This document shows positions 1,434-59,385 of a stretch of DNA of 64,000 bases, in pieces (position 1 is the stretch's first letter; the number at the start of each line of letters is the position of its first letter). The position numbers were made by a program, and so were the translations under genes. The notes beneath the pieces are model-generated. The model had not been told where the DNA came from and ran no database searches. It was given only the letters and a program-made list of their open reading frames with translations. Origin of the DNA: Octopus vulgaris (lineage: Eukaryota). The stretch spans positions 10,230,001-10,294,000 of the forward strand of contig OX597818.1 of the NCBI GenBank assembly GCA_951406725.2, written 5' to 3'.

Positions 1434-1867
1434 CGTTAATCCAAACATGAAAACACAAAGAGAAAACACAACAACGCGAGGAAATGGAACAAATATAGTA
1501 TTATTGGACGCTCAGGAAGGAAGGAAAGAAGGAGGGTTTAACGTTTCGAGCGGAGCTCTTCGTCAGAAACATAGGAAAAGGAAAGACCCAAAGAAGGGAA
1601 GACGGAGAAAAGAAATCGCCAACGGTACACACGTGGTCATACATGGTCTCTCTCTCACTTTTACTTGATCTGTCCCCTTCTCTCTCTTTTCTCTCTACTC
1701 ATCCTCTTTTTCTCTTCTCTTTCCTCTGATTCTTTGGTCTAATCTTCCCCTACCCTTCCATTTCTTTGTCTCGCTCTGCACTCACAGGTCAATCTTCGAC
1801 ACTCATCCCTTCTCCTCTCTGATTCCTTCTTTCTCTCTCTTCTCTCCCCTTTTTGCGTTTGTCCCTC

Positions 1868-4985: not shown

Positions 4986-5867
4986 TGTTTACATTTGTTG
5001 TTAATTCCAATATTGTATCCCACTTTGTCCCAACGTTAGTATTTCTTCCAGCAGATATCTATAAATTAAATGCTAGATTGATATACGTACTGAAGTCAGC
5101 ATGATCAATTAAATTTTTGAAGGGATACCCCATCATGTCGATAGTCACTTGAAATTTACGGTAAGAGATTACTAACCACAAGATAACGAGTTCAAAACTT
5201 CGTATTGAACTTCCACTCTATATGATAACACTATATACTACAAATAGCAGCCAAATCTCTCTTAAAATATACTGTAAATCTGTGTCTTTCATCAAAAGAA
5301 AGACACAGATTTTATATTTCAGGAAGAAGAAAAAAAGTATGCAAAGGGTCTGCTATATCAGATGCAACTCCGGGTTAAACAAGCAGCATACTTCACATTA
5401 AAAGATTATCTACTAAATAATTTTTATAAAGTTGACGGTATAGCTTTGAAGTTTCATTACCTGGTAAAACTCTATGTATTTTAAACAATTTCTTAATATA
5501 CCCTAAGACAAAGATTGTTCAGCCAGAGTTGCCTCCCTCAGCTAAATACCCCATAATTGTGCGACTCGTCCTCTGGTTTACGAGGTTATTCTTGTAGTAA
5601 AAAAGAGTTGTGCAAAAACCATACTTTATTTGGTAGTCCGAACATTACTGAATCCTTTGATACCCGATACATCAAAATCGGCAACTCAGTTTTCGAATGC
5701 CTAAAGAACAAACGCACGCACGTAGACACACACAAACTCTGTTTTAATGTGTGTGTGTGTGTGTGTGTGTGTGGCAAGAAAAATTCAATGTAAATATCAA
5801 TATATATGTATATATATATTTACTTGAAATGGATACATGGTGTTCACTTCAAAAATAATATAGATGT

Positions 5868-26345: not shown

Positions 26346-27442
26346 GAGAGTATTGTAGTTCGTTTGAAGCATTGTGCATTGTAAAGAATAAAATGTTTCG
26401 AATGGTACAACAATGCACTATAATACAAGCAATGGGCTATATACTTGTTGTAATTTAACCATTTATAGTCTGATAATATTTCAGAATAAAATTCTTTCCT
26501 TAGATATTCCTAGGAACTGATGGAGTCGCTGCTATAATCGGGATTCTAACGGGTTTTTTTCCGGAAGCGTCTCTGCAGTGGTCTCACGAAGCTCTTTCCG
26601 GAATTCCTTATTTGAAGTGCGTGAGGTCGGCCATGTCTCAATCTTTTGTGTGCTGGCACATCTGTGGCGCTGCTTCTAAGTTATGTATTATACGTAAAGC
26701 CTCCTTTTCCCCTTCTTTTTTCTTCTCTTTTTTTTTGTTATAAACAATATATGAGCATGTTATAAAAAATGAACCTACACGCATCCAGATGTAGCTAAAT
26801 AATATATTGATTACCAACCTCTAGTCTGTTGTTAATTTGGGGCCCTAGTCTGTGAATGAGTTTAGCTTCCTTAATTCTTAAATTACCCATATTCTTTCAG
26901 CGGCCTCAATTATGACTGTTATGCTTTTGTCGGTGTCCCGGCATCTGTCTAGATGTTTTCTGAAGGAGGAGGCTCTCGTGTTCAGATGTTCTTTGATGCA
27001 GACGTGTATAGGTCTTGATGTGCTACCCACATAGAACTTGTTGCATTTGCTACATTGCATTCTATACACAACATTTACCCGTTGGCATAAATCTGTGTCA
27101 CGGATGGGACAGTTTGTTAGTGTGCGTTGATTGTTGTCCCTTGTTCATTTATTTGCGAGATGTCTTCTCAGAGAGGGGCCGCAGTGGGCTAGTTGTATGT
27201 CTAGCCATTCTCTTCTTATGGCTCTTCGGATGGCTGTAGTTATCCTCTCGCTAAAATGGGGTATTTTAAGGAAGCATGTATTACTGGGTTTTCTGTGTTC
27301 GGCGTGTTGGTCGTCTTGGGTACTGAAGCCGATTTATAATGGATCTAGGGTACCCGTTGGTTTTCAATATATCTAGGAAGCGTGTAGTGTGGGTCTCCTT
27401 GTCCTCCGTTCTGCTGCCCTTGCCCTGGATGCGTGCAAGTTC
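26345..27442 (-). mobile_element. Penelope-like element 3' part: thumb/linker, GIY-YIG endonuclease and pseudo-LTR
   Basis: LKTNGYP, LKIPHFSE, CPIRDTDLC, NVVYRMQCSKCNKFYVGSTSRPIHVCIKEH, KEAKLIHRLGPQINN (GIY-YIG); frameshifts and stops; ends at (TA)n. Confidence 0.85.
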
Positions 27443-28302
27443 GTGCGGTGAATAAATTGTGGTCAAAATTAAACAAAAATGAAAATGACACTGATACCTC
27501 ATTTTAACAGATATGTTTACAATTGTATTAAAATATTTTGAAATACTGAAGAGTAAATTTATTCAATAAAATTGCCATTGGCTTCAACCACGGTCTCCAG
27601 GCAACTTCAGAATCTCCTGCAATTCTTCTGGATGGTCTCCTTGTTCAAGTTGGGGAATGCTACCATAAACCTTGCCTTAAGTTCATCTTTGGTGTTACAA
27701 GGAGTTTTGTTGGTCTCTCGCACAACTACGCCTCAAACATAATAAATAATCAAGTGGGGCGTAGTCTAGGGAGATAGGTGGCCAGATGTTAGGGGTGATG
27801 TGGTCGCAGAAATTGTCTGACAGCCATGACTGGGTTCTTCTGCTTGTGTAACATGGGGCAGAGTCCCGTTGTTAGACATAGTGTGTTCCAGCAGCCACAC
27901 TCTTAACCCAGAAAAACAATGCCTCCTCCAGGCAATTATTGAAGACCTCTGTGTTGAGACTGAGGCCGTGTAGGAAGATAAATGGAGGTATAAGGTCGCC
28001 ATCACTAGAGATTACTCCAAACACCATGATGTTGACTCTCATGTCCTGAGATCACACTATCCTTAGATTGACAGCCAAACTCTCTGAAACGTTCCTATTG
28101 GAGCTTCCGGTGCGAATGCCAAGCAGTACAGCATGTCCTTTTCAAATTTCTGGCAAAGTGAATTGCGCCATGGTGTCTTTTTTGTCACAAACGGTGCGCA
28201 ACTGACCCTACTATACTGAGTAGTCGACGAAATTAAAAACAAACAATGTGCATGCACGAAATAGAATATATGAAACAGTGACTATTTACCCATCGCACCC
28301 TA
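27443..28302 (-). mobile_element. Tc1/mariner-superfamily DD37D (maT) transposon, internally deleted
   Basis: QRDSAPCY...WPPISLDYAPLDY with 37 residues between the second and third D; C-terminus EANGNFIE*; imperfect TIRs GTGCGGTGAATAAATTGT / ACTATTTACCCATCGCACCC. Confidence 0.8.
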
Positions 28303-28449
28303 TATATCTATCTATATATATCTATCTAGAGTAAACAAGAGAGACAGAGAAAGGCAGAAACTAGGAAAATGCCACTTATATTTAAACACTATACAAATAT
28401 TCTTTTAAAAAACTTTTCTTTTAATTTTTCTAAATTTAATTATTGTTAA

Positions 28450-28483
28450 AGTTAAAAAGGTCTCAATGACTGAAACCGGTACT
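28450..28483 (+). ncRNA. Decayed minimal hammerhead motif
   Basis: AG-TTAAAAA (CTGAAGA with three transitions)-GGTC-TCAAT-GACT-GAAAC-CG-GTA-CT; palindromic stem III ACCGGT. Confidence 0.45.
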
Positions 28484-28623
28484 GAAATGTTCTTTATAAA
28501 ATTATTTTAGCATTTTCTATCCGGACTTATTTTTTCATATATATATATATATATACATGAAAAGATAGCACCGGCAAATTGCTAGAAATATATATATATA
28601 TATATCTTTATATATATATATAT

Positions 28624-28755
28624 ATTTATTATATAGAAGGAGCTTCTACAGGACTAGAACTGTTTCATTCAAGAGAAATCTTCAGGAAGCTTCCTGAAGA
28701 TTTCTCTTGAATGAAACAGTTCTAGTCCTGTAGAAGCTCCTTCTACATAATAAAT
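28624..28755. repeat. Palindrome with no spacer (perfect over 28634-28745, centre 28689/28690)
   Basis: 56-bp arms are exact reverse complements; extends to 66 bp with one mismatch. Confidence 0.95.
28688..28738 (+). ncRNA. Type I hammerhead ribozyme motif (mirror copy on minus strand, 28641-28691)
   Basis: AGCUUC-CUGAAGA-U-UUC-UCUU-GAA-U-GAA-ACAG-UUCUAGUC-CUGU-A(17)-GAAGCU: 6-bp stem I, 4-bp stem III, GUA triplet (cleavage after 28732). Confidence 0.75.
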
Positions 28756-28842
28756 TAATTTTACTCTGCTATGTATTGAGTACCTTATTTACTGTGGTTA
28801 ACCCTGAATCAACCCGGGACCTACATATATATATATATATAT

Positions 28843-29268
28843 ATAAATAAAAGAATTCAACCTTGCTCTGATTTTCACGTTTTATTTACAATCTTATAAT
28901 GATATATTATAAGATAATATATTATAATTGAGTAAAATAAAATGAAATAGTAGAATGTTAAATATTCATTCTGATTGAACTAGTACTTTCATGCATTGAA
29001 TTCTGCAATCTTCGGGTTCATGTAGTAGTGTTGACAGTCATGCGTCAAAAATTTTGACAGTCAAAAATTGTGAAGCATGACTGTCAACACTACTACATGA
29101 ACCCGAAGATTGCAGAATTCAATGCATGAAAGTACTAGTTCAATCAGAATATATTTAATATTCTACTATTTCATTTTATTTTATATTATAATATATTATC
29201 TTATAATATATCATTATAAGATTGTAAATAAAACGTGAAAATTAGTGGAATTCTTTTTATTAATATAT
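28843..29268. repeat. Long inverted repeat (~200-bp arms, 31-bp spacer 29044-29074)
   Basis: Inner ~76 bp of the arms are exact reverse complements; outer parts differ by small indels; flanked by (TA)n. Confidence 0.95.
29098..29142 (+). ncRNA. Minimal type I hammerhead motif, U4C variant (mirror copy on minus strand, 28976-29020)
   Basis: UGAAC-CCGAAGA-U-UGCA-GAAUUCAA-UGCA-U-GAA-AGUACU-A(17)-GUUCA: 5-bp stem I, 4-bp stem II, palindromic stem III, CUA triplet. Confidence 0.65.
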
Positions 29269-29292
29269 TCTTCTATACACAATCACACACAC

Positions 29293-29353
<61 letters not shown>

Positions 29354-29563
29354 GTGTAGGAAGAAATGGAGCTGAACGAAGATTTAACAAAATTCCTTTT
29401 TATTATTTTCTACATATGTTTCAAAGGCTGCAAAGTCCCTAATTCGGATTAAAGGCCCCATGGTCGTAACCTCAACCGTACTTTTCTGTTGTGATTTTTG
29501 CTACCCAGGTATCGGTTATCATGTGAATAATCCGTAATAAGATAATTCATTTATCTACTTCAA

Positions 29564-29617
<54 letters not shown>

Positions 29618-29737
29618 TATTTGTATGCGCGGTGTGTGAGAGTACATATACATAAAATGAAACTACACACGATTTTTCCTCCTTTTTGTTTTTCTTTTGT
29701 ATTTTCCTATGTCTCCTGTTTCCGATGAAGAACTTAT

Positions 29738-30062
29738 TCGAACAAATCGTTCCCAGGACTTATTCTTTGTAAGCCTAGTACTTATTCAATCGGGCTGTTT
29801 TGCCGAACCGCTAAGTTACAGGTAAGTAAACACACCAACATCGGTTGTCAAGTGATGGTAGGGGGGGGATCAAAGACAGACACATGCACACATAAACATA
29901 TACGACGGGCTTCTTTCAGTTTCCCTCTATCAAATCCACTCACAAGGCTTTGGTTGGCTCAAGGTCACAGTAGGAGACACTTGCGCAAGGTGCCATGCAG
30001 TGGGACTGAACCCAGAACCAAGTGGTTGGGAAGTAAGCTTCTTATCACACAGCCACGCCCGA
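29738..30062 (-). mobile_element. SINE family A
   Basis: Reverse complement of family A; 3' tail lost at the junction with an HHR remnant. Confidence 0.85.
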
Positions 30063-30618
30063 GCTAAGATATATATGTGTGTGCGCGTGTGTGTGTGTGT
30101 GTGTGTATTTATATATACATACACCTATATAATTATATGATATCGCATAGTTTAGAATATTGCTGCACACCCACATTATTATTTGTGTCTGCGTGGATGA
30201 CGATTGCAGTCGAGGCTAGCACAGCGGGCGGCTAGTACTGATAGTACGGTTGCCAAGCGAGCTAAGATGCAGCATGAGATTTGCTATTCTCTGCACTTTC
30301 TACTAATGGTGGAAGAGAGGTTAGTGAAGTTAATATATGCGTGTATATGAGCGTATGTGTGTATTTTATGTTTGTATGCATTCAGTGGATTGATGTTGTT
30401 CTTAGAATGGTGTTATAGACAGAATGCCGTACAGTATTTCCGTTATGGCAGGGTATTGTCTTAGAACGTAGACTGTGATACCTTGAGCTTCCGGTAGCAA
30501 TACCTCTGTCTCTCGTACGTCTTGGTGGTTTTTTTCATTTTCAGTGGATTTTTTTCCGATGATGCTGGCAATTTGGTGTGATATTAGGTAACTCAAAAAA
30601 ATTTAACAAAATAAGTAT

Positions 30619-31014
30619 AGGCGTAGGAGTGGCTGTGTGGTAAGTAGCTTTCTCACGAACCACACGGTTCCGGGTTCAGTCCCAGTGCGTGGAACCTTGG
30701 GCAAGTGACTTCTACTATAGCCTCGGGCCGACCAAAGCCTTGTGAGTGGATTTGGTAGAGGGGAACTGAAAGAAGCCCGTCGTATATGTGTGGGTGCGTG
30801 TATATACGTTTGCGTGTCAGTGTTTGTCCCCCAACATCGCTTGACAACCCATGCTGGTGTGTTTACGTCCCCGTAACTTAGCGTTTCGACAAAAGAGACC
30901 GATAGAATAAGTACCAGGCTTACAAAGAATAAGTCCTGGGGTCGATTTGCTCGACTAAAAGCGGTGTTCCAGCATGGCCACAGTCAAATGACTGAAAGAA
31001 GTAAAAGAGTAAAA
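30619..31014 (+). mobile_element. SINE family A, full length
   Basis: GGCGTAGGAGTGGCTGTGTGG...GGTTCAGTCCC...canonical tail. Confidence 0.9.
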
Positions 31015-57988: not shown

Positions 57989-59385
57989 TCAGGTTGCCTA
58001 AAAAGTAAGCAACGTATTGAAACATGAAATTCGTCACAATATATTTCAACAATGTGAAAATTTTATTCATCAAAGTAAGTACCATTACAATCAACACATT
58101 TTTACCAACAAGTTTTGTTTATTACGGTAACATAAAATCTGGAGCTAATGAACTCTTTGATCTCACTTACAGCATCGGTTTGAATTTTGAACTCCTTCTC
58201 TCGCAGGAAACCATCAAGGTGCTTGAAAAAGTGGTAGTCGGTAGGAGAAAGGTCTGGGGTATAAGCTGGGTGGGGAAGAACTTCGTAGCCAAGTTCTCTC
58301 AACTTCTAGAGCGTCATTAGGGAAACTCGTGGTCGAGCATTGATCAAAGTGTTCATCAGCTCCAGATTTTTATGTTACCGTAATAAACAAAACTTGTTGG
58401 TAAAAATGTGTTGATTGTAATGGTACTTACTTTGATGAATAAAATTTCCACATTGTTGAAATATATTATGATGAATTTCATGTTTCAAAACGTTGTTTAC
58501 TTTATAGTCAGCCTGTTGACCAGTCTGGGACGAAGGAGTAACAGTTTTTCGTTCATTTTGGTAATTTCAAGGCAATGTTTCTCCAGTAATGGTTTTTTCC
58601 GGGTTTTAAGAAGTTATAGTGGGTGAGTCCAGCAGTACACCACCAAACAGTCACCATAACCTTCTTTCTGAAGAGCTCGGTTTAGGGAAGGGTTTTAGTG
58701 CTTCATTTTGGTCCAACCATTGCGAAGAACGGTTTTTTATTATTGTACAGAATCCACTTTGCATCACAAGTTACAATATGGTCGAGAGATGGATCGGTCT
58801 GGTTACGGAGAAGAAGCGACGATCAAATTTTATATCTGCGCATTTTCTGATTTTCATTCAAATTGTGTGGTACCCATTTGTCGAGCTTCTTTTTTTTCCG
58901 ATTGCTTGCAAATGGATTCAGGCTAACTTGAAGATCTTTTGCCAGTTCTAGTGTGATTTTACGTGGATTTTTCTCAATGTCGGTCTTTAATTGACTGTCA
59001 TGATAAATGGGCATCCACTACGCTCACGATCTTCAAGGCTCAGGTCTCCACTGCGAAATCGTTTAAACCTTGTTCGAGCTGATCGCTCACTGGTCATGTC
59101 CTCACCAAACGTTTCGTTGATATCGCGAGCAGTTTCAGCTGCTTTACGTCCGTTTTTGAAGTTGAATAGCAAAATTGCTCGAATATCGCGCTTTGACAGT
59201 TCCATTTCAGATAATTGTAACAACGGTGAAAAAAATATCAAAGCTAATTTATTGATGCATTTGGACAAGTCTATATCTGTATTATCAGACAATTGCAAAA
59301 ATATGTATAAAAGAATTCGAAACTGTAAAAATCCGGTACAAATTCTTCATGGTTCAAAAAGTTGCTTACTTTTTACTCAATCTGA
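57989..59385 (-). mobile_element. Mariner (DD34D-type) transposon with pseudogenised transposase
   Basis: TIRs TCAGGTTGCCTAAAAAGTAAGCAACGTATTGAA / TCAGATTGAGTAAAAAGTAAGCAACTTTTTGAA, TA on both sides; MELSKRDIRAILLFNFKNGRKAAETARDIN (ATG 59205), WVPHNL, VTCDAKWILY, NARP, HPAYTPDLSPTDYHFF. Confidence 0.92.

What the first reader, a model, noticed from the sequence alone, without database searches (positions are those of the whole stretch)
28330..29742. Cluster of hammerhead-bearing mini-elements in (TA)n: candidate ribozyme-based non-autonomous retroelement system
Seen: within 1.4 kb, five short non-coding modules separated by (TA)n each hold a hammerhead or remnant with unrelated stem sequences: 28450-28483 (decayed), 28641-28738 (twin), 28976-29142 (twin), ~29410-29475(-) (GAAAC-AUAU-GUA half only), 29718-29742 (CCGAUGA, truncated by a SINE). 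A GIY-YIG PLE lies ~1 kb away. Established: PLEs and retrozymes use type I hammerheads to process their RNA. Inference: diverse PLE-dependent mini-elements repeatedly target TA microsatellites, so this genome may hold very many uncatalogued ribozymes, often as palindromic twins.
Basis: partly seen in the sequence, partly recalled or inferred. Interest (0 to 1): 0.85.

Follow-up and report, generated by a model that had tools for sequence, protein, structure and literature searches.

The report
Penelope end-pieces record capped-RNA copying
The five modules are short hammerhead-bearing pieces of five unrelated repeat families, four of them traced to Penelope-like retrotransposons, stacked in one (TA)n tract; in two families hundreds of copies stop at one point, often with an extra G, which likely records reverse transcription of an uncut, capped RNA primed from both sides of the insertion site.

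Summary
Observation confirmed: four complete hammerhead motifs (two palindromic twins) against 0.017 per shuffled window, plus three remnants whose families hold complete motifs. Interpretation revised: these are not a separate non-autonomous system. Modules 2 and 3 are pseudo-LTR (5'-end) pieces of intact, tandemly arranged Penelope-like elements (Hydra-type and Neptune-type); modules 1 and 4 lie downstream of GIY-YIG-like frames; module 5's parent was not found. Hammerheads in pLTRs, inverted 5'-truncated copies, one-sided tails and (TA)n targeting are published. What I did not find in print: 777 and 102 short twins, and the solo copies, stop 29-30 nt behind a TATA-like box. In family 2, 36 of 54 solos carry an extra G there against at most 2 of 43 at a control window, and 0 of 60 sampled copies start at the ribozyme cut site. 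Best reading (inferred): both target ends prime on capped, uncleaved sense RNA and the two cDNAs join head to head. No RNA start or cleavage was measured; the G could also be templated by a 5' hairpin. A 200-kb sample suggests roughly 70,000 hammerhead motifs in the genome, which is within the published range.

The parts
28328..28537 (+). Module 1: 5'-truncated 3' end of a Penelope-like family (Neptune-like linker), with a decayed U3-A8 hammerhead at 28449-28484
   Evidence: Family copies end at the same (TA)n junction and vary at the 5' end; one of five long copies inspected (L074) continues into a GIY-YIG-like frame with CX4CxxC (no Pfam hit); core variant counts
28625..28825 (.). Module 2: head-to-head twin of the pLTR 5' end of a Hydra-type Penelope-like element; axis 28689/28690; hammerheads 28688-28738(+) and 28641-28691(-); tail 28756-28825 on one side only
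   Evidence: 1778 exact copies of the motif, 777 short twins; parent has a 722-codon RT plus endonuclease frame starting 183 nt after the axis
28846..29295 (.). Module 3: head-to-head twin of the pLTR 5' end of a Neptune-type Penelope-like element; centre base 29059; hammerheads 29098-29142(+) and 28976-29020(-); tail about 29268-29295 on one side only
   Evidence: 1131 exact copies, 102 short twins; parent is a 4271-bp tandem unit with a 430-aa upstream ORF and a 775-codon RT-GIY-YIG frame
29351..29562 (.). Module 4: unequal twin; the non-tail end with the 3' half of the hammerhead on the - strand (about 29351-29452) is joined to an inverted piece of the family's tail (about 29453-29562)
   Evidence: Family copies show the full motif, a 150-bp tail and variable inversion points; 259 exact copies of the motif's 5' part; 5 of 30 loci continue into a GIY-YIG-like frame with an N-rich linker (no Pfam hit)
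29660..29733 (+). Module 5: 5' half of a minimal hammerhead (core 29722-29728) of an older family, cut by a SINE-like insertion; parent element not found
   Evidence: family copies carry the full minimal motif with U4C, an unpaired base before stem II and a loopless stem III
29734..30062 (-). SINE-like repeat that truncates module 5 (the label SINE is recalled)
   Evidence: 84-86% inverted match to a second copy at 30626-30958
26450..27460 (-). Broken 3' fragment of a sixth Penelope-like family (GIY-YIG) with its own decayed minimal hammerhead near 26475-26510; not a parent of the modules

Best explanation
The modules are end-pieces (pseudo-LTR 5' segments, which contain the hammerhead) of several unrelated repeat families, four traced to Penelope-like retrotransposons, that inserted one after another into a (TA)n tract, and the twins likely form when both cut ends of the target prime reverse transcription on capped, uncleaved element RNA and the two short cDNAs join head to head. 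Shown: the parents of modules 2 and 3 are intact tandem elements; each insertion ends at one of two fixed 3' points (with or without tail); solos and twins stop at one point 29-30 nt behind a TATA-like box; many solos carry an extra G there. Inferred: that point is the transcription start and the G is the copied cap; the RT start site exists twice in a terminally redundant transcript, and use of the 5' copy gives a 110-270-nt run-off cDNA; one cDNA joined to (TA)n gives a solo, two joined to each other give a twin. The twins would be dead by-products, and the hammerhead a passenger at this step.
For: Parents: 4271-bp tandem unit with RT and GIY-YIG; 722- and 718-codon frames with YRDD, DKT and CxCX5C directly behind the module-2 pLTR (clade features). 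Two fixed 3' ends (unit positions 224 and 270) in the family-3 loci mapped. Stop point: TATA-like box at -29 (family 2) and -30 (family 3, with three CCAAT boxes); 777 and 102 short twins; 0 of the first 50 family-2 twin junctions reach the parent's -1 base (parent context in 38 of 38 and 40 of 40 read-through copies). Solos at the stop point: 54 distinct in family 2 and 67 distinct in the first 100 of 148 rows in family 3, against 2 and 2 in 11-nt windows 40-50 nt upstream. Extra G: 36 of 54 (24 directly before +1 A) against at most 2 of 43 at an internal window (Fisher p 7e-11); found in both subfamilies, with and without tail; 14 of 67 in family 3. An extra G marks cap copying in L1 (PMC11702581). 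Uncleaved template: 0 of 30 and 0 of 30 position-ordered copies begin at the cut site. Two cDNAs: the centre base of tail-bearing family-3 twins is T in 12 and A in 10, and in L162 neither arm can be a copy of the other. In vitro, a Poseidon protein extends both target strands, starts at two sites flanking the tail and uses uncleaved RNA (PMC11167929).
Against: No RNA start, cap or cleavage was measured. In both families the extra G also lengthens a 5'-terminal hairpin by one pair, so fold-back could template it; longer fold-back-like junctions exist (9 and 5). In family 3 only 14 of 67 solos show G and about 16 show an unexplained C or AC instead. In family 2, solos are also frequent inside the 5' segment (43 distinct in the first 100 of 120 rows over 11 nt), so the stop point is a sharp upstream limit more than a lone peak. 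Family 4 shows only a broad cluster of 5' ends with two possible G cases in 30 loci. Six of 9 loci have one arm ending at the ribozyme cut site, which could be rare cleaved templates. Arms share the subfamily marker in 56 of 57 twins, which one-template copying also predicts. Pfam gave no RT or GIY-YIG hit for the parents of modules 1, 2 and 4; these rest on motifs. Module 5 has no parent shown.
Confidence: 0.68

Rival explanations
1. The stop point is a reverse-transcriptase stall at the 5'-terminal hairpin (hammerhead stem I in family 2, a 7-bp hairpin in family 3) of a longer RNA, and the extra G is templated by brief fold-back of the cDNA, not by a cap.
For: In both families the G extends that hairpin by one pair; longer fold-back-like junctions occur 9 and 5 times; G is a minority in family 3 (14 of 67).
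Against: 23 family-2 solos have exactly one G, one has GG and none a longer templated run within the 4-nt window; 7 have G followed by a wrong base at +1, which fold-back pairing would not give. A TATA-like box lies at the standard distance in two unrelated families. Junction density falls to 2 just upstream.
Confidence: 0.15
2. Twins arise from one molecule by self-priming: a single cDNA snaps back at its palindromic end, or an antisense RNA primes itself (the model proposed in PMC3846280).
For: Both hot spots are short palindromes; arms carry the same subfamily marker in 56 of 57 twins; two family-3 copies share rare variants in both arms.
Against: Tail-bearing twins would have to be primed from the tail arm and keep one centre base, but T and A occur 12 to 10. 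Unequal twins exist in which the tail-less arm is longer than the tail arm. The extra G sits at the sense 5' end.
Confidence: 0.1
3. One reading: the twins are non-autonomous palindromic retroelements (retrozyme- or MITE-like) that are transcribed, self-cleave and are moved as units by a Penelope protein.
For: Hundreds of near-identical twins with constant outer ends; non-autonomous hammerhead elements derived from pLTRs are known (10.64898/2026.07.22.740005); a 362-bp tandem hammerhead family exists in this genome.
Against: About 11 junction types among 50 twins; a continuum up to multi-kilobase inverted pairs; the outer ends equal the parent's own two 3' ends; both ribozymes point outward with no direct repeat to make a circle; the full transcript is a perfect hairpin.
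Confidence: 0.07

Closest known systems
Endonuclease-positive Penelope-like elements with an inverted 5'-truncated copy and one-sided tail (Craig et al. 2021, 10.1101/2021.04.23.441226; passages and sections 11, 15 read; Arkhipova et al. 2013, PMC3846280, parts 1-4 of 5 read)
   Same: Partial tandems, head-to-head inverted copies, palindromes at the junction, tail at one end, (TA)n targeting, TATA and initiator-like motifs in the pLTR. Family 2 has the Hydra marks (DKT, CxCX5C, hammerhead, TA targets); family 3 has DKG and CX4CxxC (Neptune type).
   Different: Here hundreds of insertions consist of the pLTR 5' segment alone and stop at one base with an extra G; those papers describe no such fixed stop. 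Arkhipova 2013 proposed self-priming on an antisense template; the junctions here favour a sense, capped template. Family 2 has a 3.3-kb microsatellite-like 3' region.
PLE hammerheads and minimal hammerheads (Cervera and de la Pena 2014, PMC4209133; parts 1-2 of 4 read)
   Same: Type I motifs in pLTRs, palindromic short stem III, unpaired base before stem II, U3-A8 core variant, thousands of solitary copies, pairs on opposite strands 100-700 bp apart.
   Different: Families 2 and 3 have U.U at 10.1/11.1 (also reported for an axolotl motif, PMC7229834 passage) and the young family-3 subfamily has U4C. That paper proposed cleavage and circular templates; 0 of 60 sampled copies here start at the cut site.
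Poseidon element PAc in vitro (Frangieh et al. 2024, PMC11167929; parts 1-2 of 4 read)
   Same: Two internal RT start sites bracketing the tail, extension of both target strands, AT-rich targets, uncleaved RNA as substrate.
   Different: In vitro only and with synthetic RNA; the text read gives no cap signature, no joined twin product and no genome-wide junction counts. Different clades here.
Non-LTR retrozymes (Cervera and de la Pena 2020, PMC7229834, passages; Li et al. 2026, 10.64898/2026.07.22.740005, parts 1-3 of 5 read)
   Same: Short non-coding hammerhead-bearing repeats related to pLTRs, very high copy numbers.
   Different: Retrozymes are head-to-tail tandems of 150-450 bp that give circular RNA; the modules are solos or head-to-head pairs cut from coding elements.
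LINE-1 twin priming and cap-derived G (PMC11702581, passages)
   Same: Second target end primes a second cDNA, giving an inversion; extra G at fully copied 5' ends.
   Different: In L1 the two primers copy different parts of one RNA; here both arms copy the same segment and give a palindrome.

Membership tests
Type I hammerhead ribozyme | Conserved core with stems I, II and III in type I order | tested here: met
   Modules 2 and 3 complete in the window; modules 1, 4, 5 complete in family copies only
Type I hammerhead ribozyme | Self-cleavage at the predicted site | not testable with these tools
   No assay; 0 of 60 sampled genomic copies start at the site, which speaks to the template used, not to activity
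Penelope-like element (EN+) | RT and C-terminal GIY-YIG endonuclease linked to the repeat | tested here: met
   Family 3 by Pfam; family 2 by motifs in an intact 722-codon frame, no Pfam hit; families 1 and 4 endonuclease-like end only; family 5 not shown
Penelope-like element (EN+) | Partial tandems (pLTRs), inverted 5'-truncated copies, one-sided tail | tested here: met
   Tandem periods 4271 and about 5200-5400 bp; inverted pairs and two fixed 3' ends
Hydra clade (family 2) | DKT for DKG, CxCX5C linker, hammerhead, (TA)n insertion | tested here: met
   Seen in the frames; definition
Hydra clade (family 2) / Neptune clade (family 3) | Placement in an RT phylogeny with reference elements | not testable with these tools
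Neptune clade (family 3) | CX2-5CxxC linker between RT and endonuclease | tested here: met
   CX4CxxC before the GIY-YIG motif; the linker is shared with Nematis, so it does not separate the two; the upstream ORF as a Neptune trait is recalled
Non-LTR retrozyme | Head-to-tail tandem of 150-450-bp non-coding units, each with a hammerhead | tested here: not met
   Same-strand neighbours lie 4-6 kb apart in coding tandems; short pairs are on opposite strands
Non-LTR retrozyme | Expressed as monomeric linear and circular RNA | not testable with these tools
   Only assembled contigs of runs guessed to be RNA were available
MITE / DNA transposon derivative | Fixed internal sequence with symmetric terminal repeats, moved as a unit | tested here: not met
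   Ends are asymmetric (tail on one side in 53 of 57 family-2 twins) and the centre varies; target duplications cannot be read inside (TA)n

The most novel reading that the evidence does not exclude
The genome holds about a thousand frozen intermediates that show in vivo how Penelope-like elements copy themselves: both target ends prime on capped, uncleaved sense RNA, short run-off cDNAs reach the cap and join head to head, and the hammerhead is not used to make the template. This would explain the inverted pLTR structure, replace the antisense self-priming and cleaved-circle models for these families, and let pLTR transcription starts be mapped from DNA alone.
Probability: 0.55. Interest if true: 0.65.

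Novelty: new member of a known kind. Interest (0 to 1): 0.45.

Why it matters
How Penelope-like elements form their tandem and inverted ends, and what their hammerheads do, are named as open questions in Craig et al. 2021. Two young, intact families with about 900 short twins and well over 100 solos give base-exact junctions that discriminate between the proposed models and yield simple tests (map the start, assay capped against uncapped RNA). They also warn that short perfect palindromes of this kind are retrotransposition by-products that can be misfiled as MITEs or microRNA hairpins (Rfam's best matches were microRNA models below threshold). The ribozyme count, about 70,000 by extrapolation, is large but below the 120,000 reported for axolotl.

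Tried and rejected
Rfam scan: no hammerhead family among the listed matches; microRNA matches are below gathering score and reflect the palindrome. The neighbouring GIY-YIG fragment as parent: no DNA similarity to nine parent or family loci. A surplus of copies downstream of the cut site in family 2 (2386 against 1778) first looked like run-off at a cleaved end, but the 30 loci showed a second subfamily and internal truncations instead. RNA evidence: no RNA holder listed on record, only runs guessed to be RNA and kept as contigs; laying four of them gave no molecule ends, so start, cleavage and expression stay open. First long loci for family 2 showed no PLE frame; a protein search then found intact copies. 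A third-family test of the G in family 4 was inconclusive. Module 5 was not linked to a coding element. Single-motif folding energies are no better than shuffles (z about 0), as usual for such motifs, so they were not used. In one search the window copy was mis-parsed and left out of the 9:9 centre count. Lunse et al. (PMC5785218) is not held; I know it only from a review passage. Literature searches for a cap or strong-stop signature in PLEs, for palindromes and for cephalopod hammerheads found no such report; most subscription papers are not searched and no supplements were read (those of Frangieh 2024 and Craig 2021 could show such junctions). Earlier findings of this scan: none.

Full report
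Check of the observation. A hammerhead descriptor allowing U4C and U.U finds four motifs in the 64-kb window, the two arms of each twin, against 0.017 per shuffled window in 60 shuffles. The twins are 95-98% palindromes. The three remnants are genuine: module 1 belongs to a family with a U3-A8 core (20 of 24 parsed copies; the window copy has G5A), module 4 to a family with a full motif and a long stem II, module 5 to a family with a classic minimal hammerhead. The modules are unrelated in DNA and each is multi-copy in the 2.8-Gb genome. The host is probably an octopus-like cephalopod; that is recalled from the SINE and microsatellite make-up, not tested.

What the modules are. The module-3 motif occurs 1131 times exactly, often with a 4271-bp period. 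That unit holds a 430-aa upstream ORF and a 775-codon frame with RT and GIY-YIG domains, DKG and a CX4CxxC linker: a Neptune-type element. The module-2 motif occurs 1778 times for one subfamily; it sits 183 nt before an intact frame of 718-722 codons with YRDD, DKT and CxCX5C, the marks Craig et al. give for the Hydra clade; Pfam does not recognise this protein. Module 1 (one long copy) and module 4 (5 of 30 loci) follow GIY-YIG-like frames without Pfam hits. Module 5's parent was not found. The GIY-YIG fragment 1 kb away is a sixth family. So the cluster is a nest of pLTR pieces. Such nests are uncommon: 3 of 114 loci fetched for one family held another of the five within about 1.5 kb. Repeated targeting of (TA)n is the simple cause and is published.

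Anatomy. Insertions end at one of two fixed 3' points, with or without a tail; inverted pairs usually have one of each (53 of 57 family-2 twins). Inverted pairs span from tens of bases to over 9 kb. The short twins are one class of this continuum: 777 in family 2 and 102 in family 3 (control 0 and 2). Among the first 50 family-2 twins I count 19 perfect or point-mutated perfect junctions, 16 of a second type and 15 of nine rarer types; none reaches the parent's -1 base (parent context).

The fixed stop. In both parents the twin axis lies 29-30 nt behind a TATA-like box, and family 3 has three CCAAT boxes upstream. Solo copies joined straight to (TA)n stop there too: 54 distinct in family 2 (65 rows) and 67 distinct in the first 100 of 148 rows in family 3 (one search lists more starting 1-2 nt later). 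Windows of 11 nt lying 40-50 nt upstream hold 2 and 2. Of the 54 family-2 solos, 24 have G directly before +1, 7 have G then T in place of +1, 5 have one or two G before +2, 11 have no extra base, 3 have C, 2 are twin remnants and 2 carry parent upstream bases. At an internal control window at most 2 of 43 show an extra G (first 100 of 120 rows; p 7e-11). I fetched 40 of the 54: the G occurs in both subfamilies and with and without tail. In family 3 the G is seen in 14 of 67, and about 16 show an unexplained C or AC. In L1 an extra G at full-length 5' junctions reflects the cap (PMC11702581, passage). Penelope's start lies in its pLTR (PMC2377424, passages).

No sign of a cleaved template. With patterns just 3' of the cut site, 0 of 30 and 0 of 30 position-ordered loci begin at that site. 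Six twins have one arm ending there; these may be rare cleaved templates or joins through the 6-nt stem I overlap.

Two cDNAs or one. The centre base of the main family-3 junction, read relative to the tail, is T in 12 and A in 10 (pooled loci, part of them ranked by similarity to the window copy). A snap-back from the tail-primed strand would fix it; two cDNAs annealed over a central mismatch would not. In L162 the tail-less arm is longer than the tail arm, so neither copies the other. Arms agree at a subfamily marker in 56 of 57 twins, so the two templates would mostly come from one source.

Mechanism. Shown: parents, two 3' ends, the stop point, the G, the absence of cut-site starts in the sample. 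Inferred: transcription from the pLTR gives a capped RNA that contains the RT start region at both ends; the protein cuts (TA)n and both ends prime, as a Poseidon protein does in vitro on uncleaved RNA (PMC11167929); priming at the 5' copy runs off at the cap after 110-270 nt; joining gives solos or twins. A read-through transcript of a twin would be one hairpin, so twins are likely inert. Main caveat: the G also extends a 5' hairpin by one pair in both families; longer fold-back-like junctions are rare (9 and 5) but exist. Family 4 gave no clear third test. RNA data gave nothing on starts.

Scale. Twenty arbitrary 10-kb stretches held 5 strict motifs (one marginal) against 0 in 25 shuffles: about 70,000 genome-wide, 95% range about 23,000-160,000. 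Two of the five belong to a 362-bp tandem family that looks like a real retrozyme.

Comparison and novelty. Hammerheads in pLTRs, opposite-strand pairs and U3-A8 cores (PMC4209133), U.U at the base of stem II and counts up to 120,000 (PMC7229834), inverted copies with tails and (TA)n bias and pLTR-derived retrozymes are published. A 2026 repeat annotation of an octopus lists recently active Penelope-like families and does not contain the words hammerhead or ribozyme in its main text (PMC13282606, passages). I found no report of a fixed stop with cap-like G or of dual-primed twins in PLEs (searches; subscription papers and supplements not covered). Arkhipova et al. 2013 explained the head-to-head palindromes by antisense self-priming and left the question open; Craig et al. 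call the hammerhead's role unclear. Verdict: new members of known clades, not a new system; the junction record makes an open mechanistic question testable. Interest 0.45.

Noticed in passing
L405:8200-9500 (G000:C6 near 50.009 Mb); also L306:187-550: A non-coding 362-bp head-to-tail repeat with a U3-A8 hammerhead in each unit, an inverted part and a (TA)n end: a candidate true non-LTR retrozyme family in this genome.
   Followed up: partly
L202, L203, L206, L477 (parent of module 2): The family-2 element carries a 3' region of about 3.3 kb made largely of TA/CA/TG microsatellite-like runs and forms inverted pairs up to about 9.6 kb; it may spread microsatellite-like DNA through the genome.
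   Followed up: partly
L442, L443, L457, L459, L461 (parent of module 4): Asparagine-rich linker with a variable (AAC/AAT)n run in frame before the GIY-YIG domain, recalling the N-rich inserts of rotifer Penelope elements.
   Followed up: no
L156:4882-5014 and 5183-5193 (run X10): Two low-depth contigs with clustered T>C or A>G differences near the family-3 hammerhead; could be A-to-I editing of double-stranded RNA from inverted copies, but depth is about 2 and the run is only guessed to be RNA.
   Followed up: no
window 28553-28587: A 35-bp non-repeat piece between modules 1 and 2, flanked by (TA)n, with no convincing match among the loci held.
   Followed up: partly
window about 1530-1570 (-): A further complete minimal hammerhead of another family, seen at 10 sites among all loci held.
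   Followed up: no
L209:652-1038: A family-2 5' end joined to three separate pieces of its own coding frame, with gaps between them; internal deletions or template jumps.
   Followed up: no
L310, L368, L380, L390: Short repeated copies of the element's first bases at the 5' junction, as if the reverse transcriptase restarted or jumped at the RNA end.
   Followed up: no
window 27480-28230 and 58987-59346: Broken Tc1/mariner-like transposase pieces (label recalled from the translated motif and the sequence; not tested).
   Followed up: no
window 29734-30062(-) and 30615-31000(+): Two copies of the same SINE-like repeat in inverted orientation, 84-86% alike.
   Followed up: no
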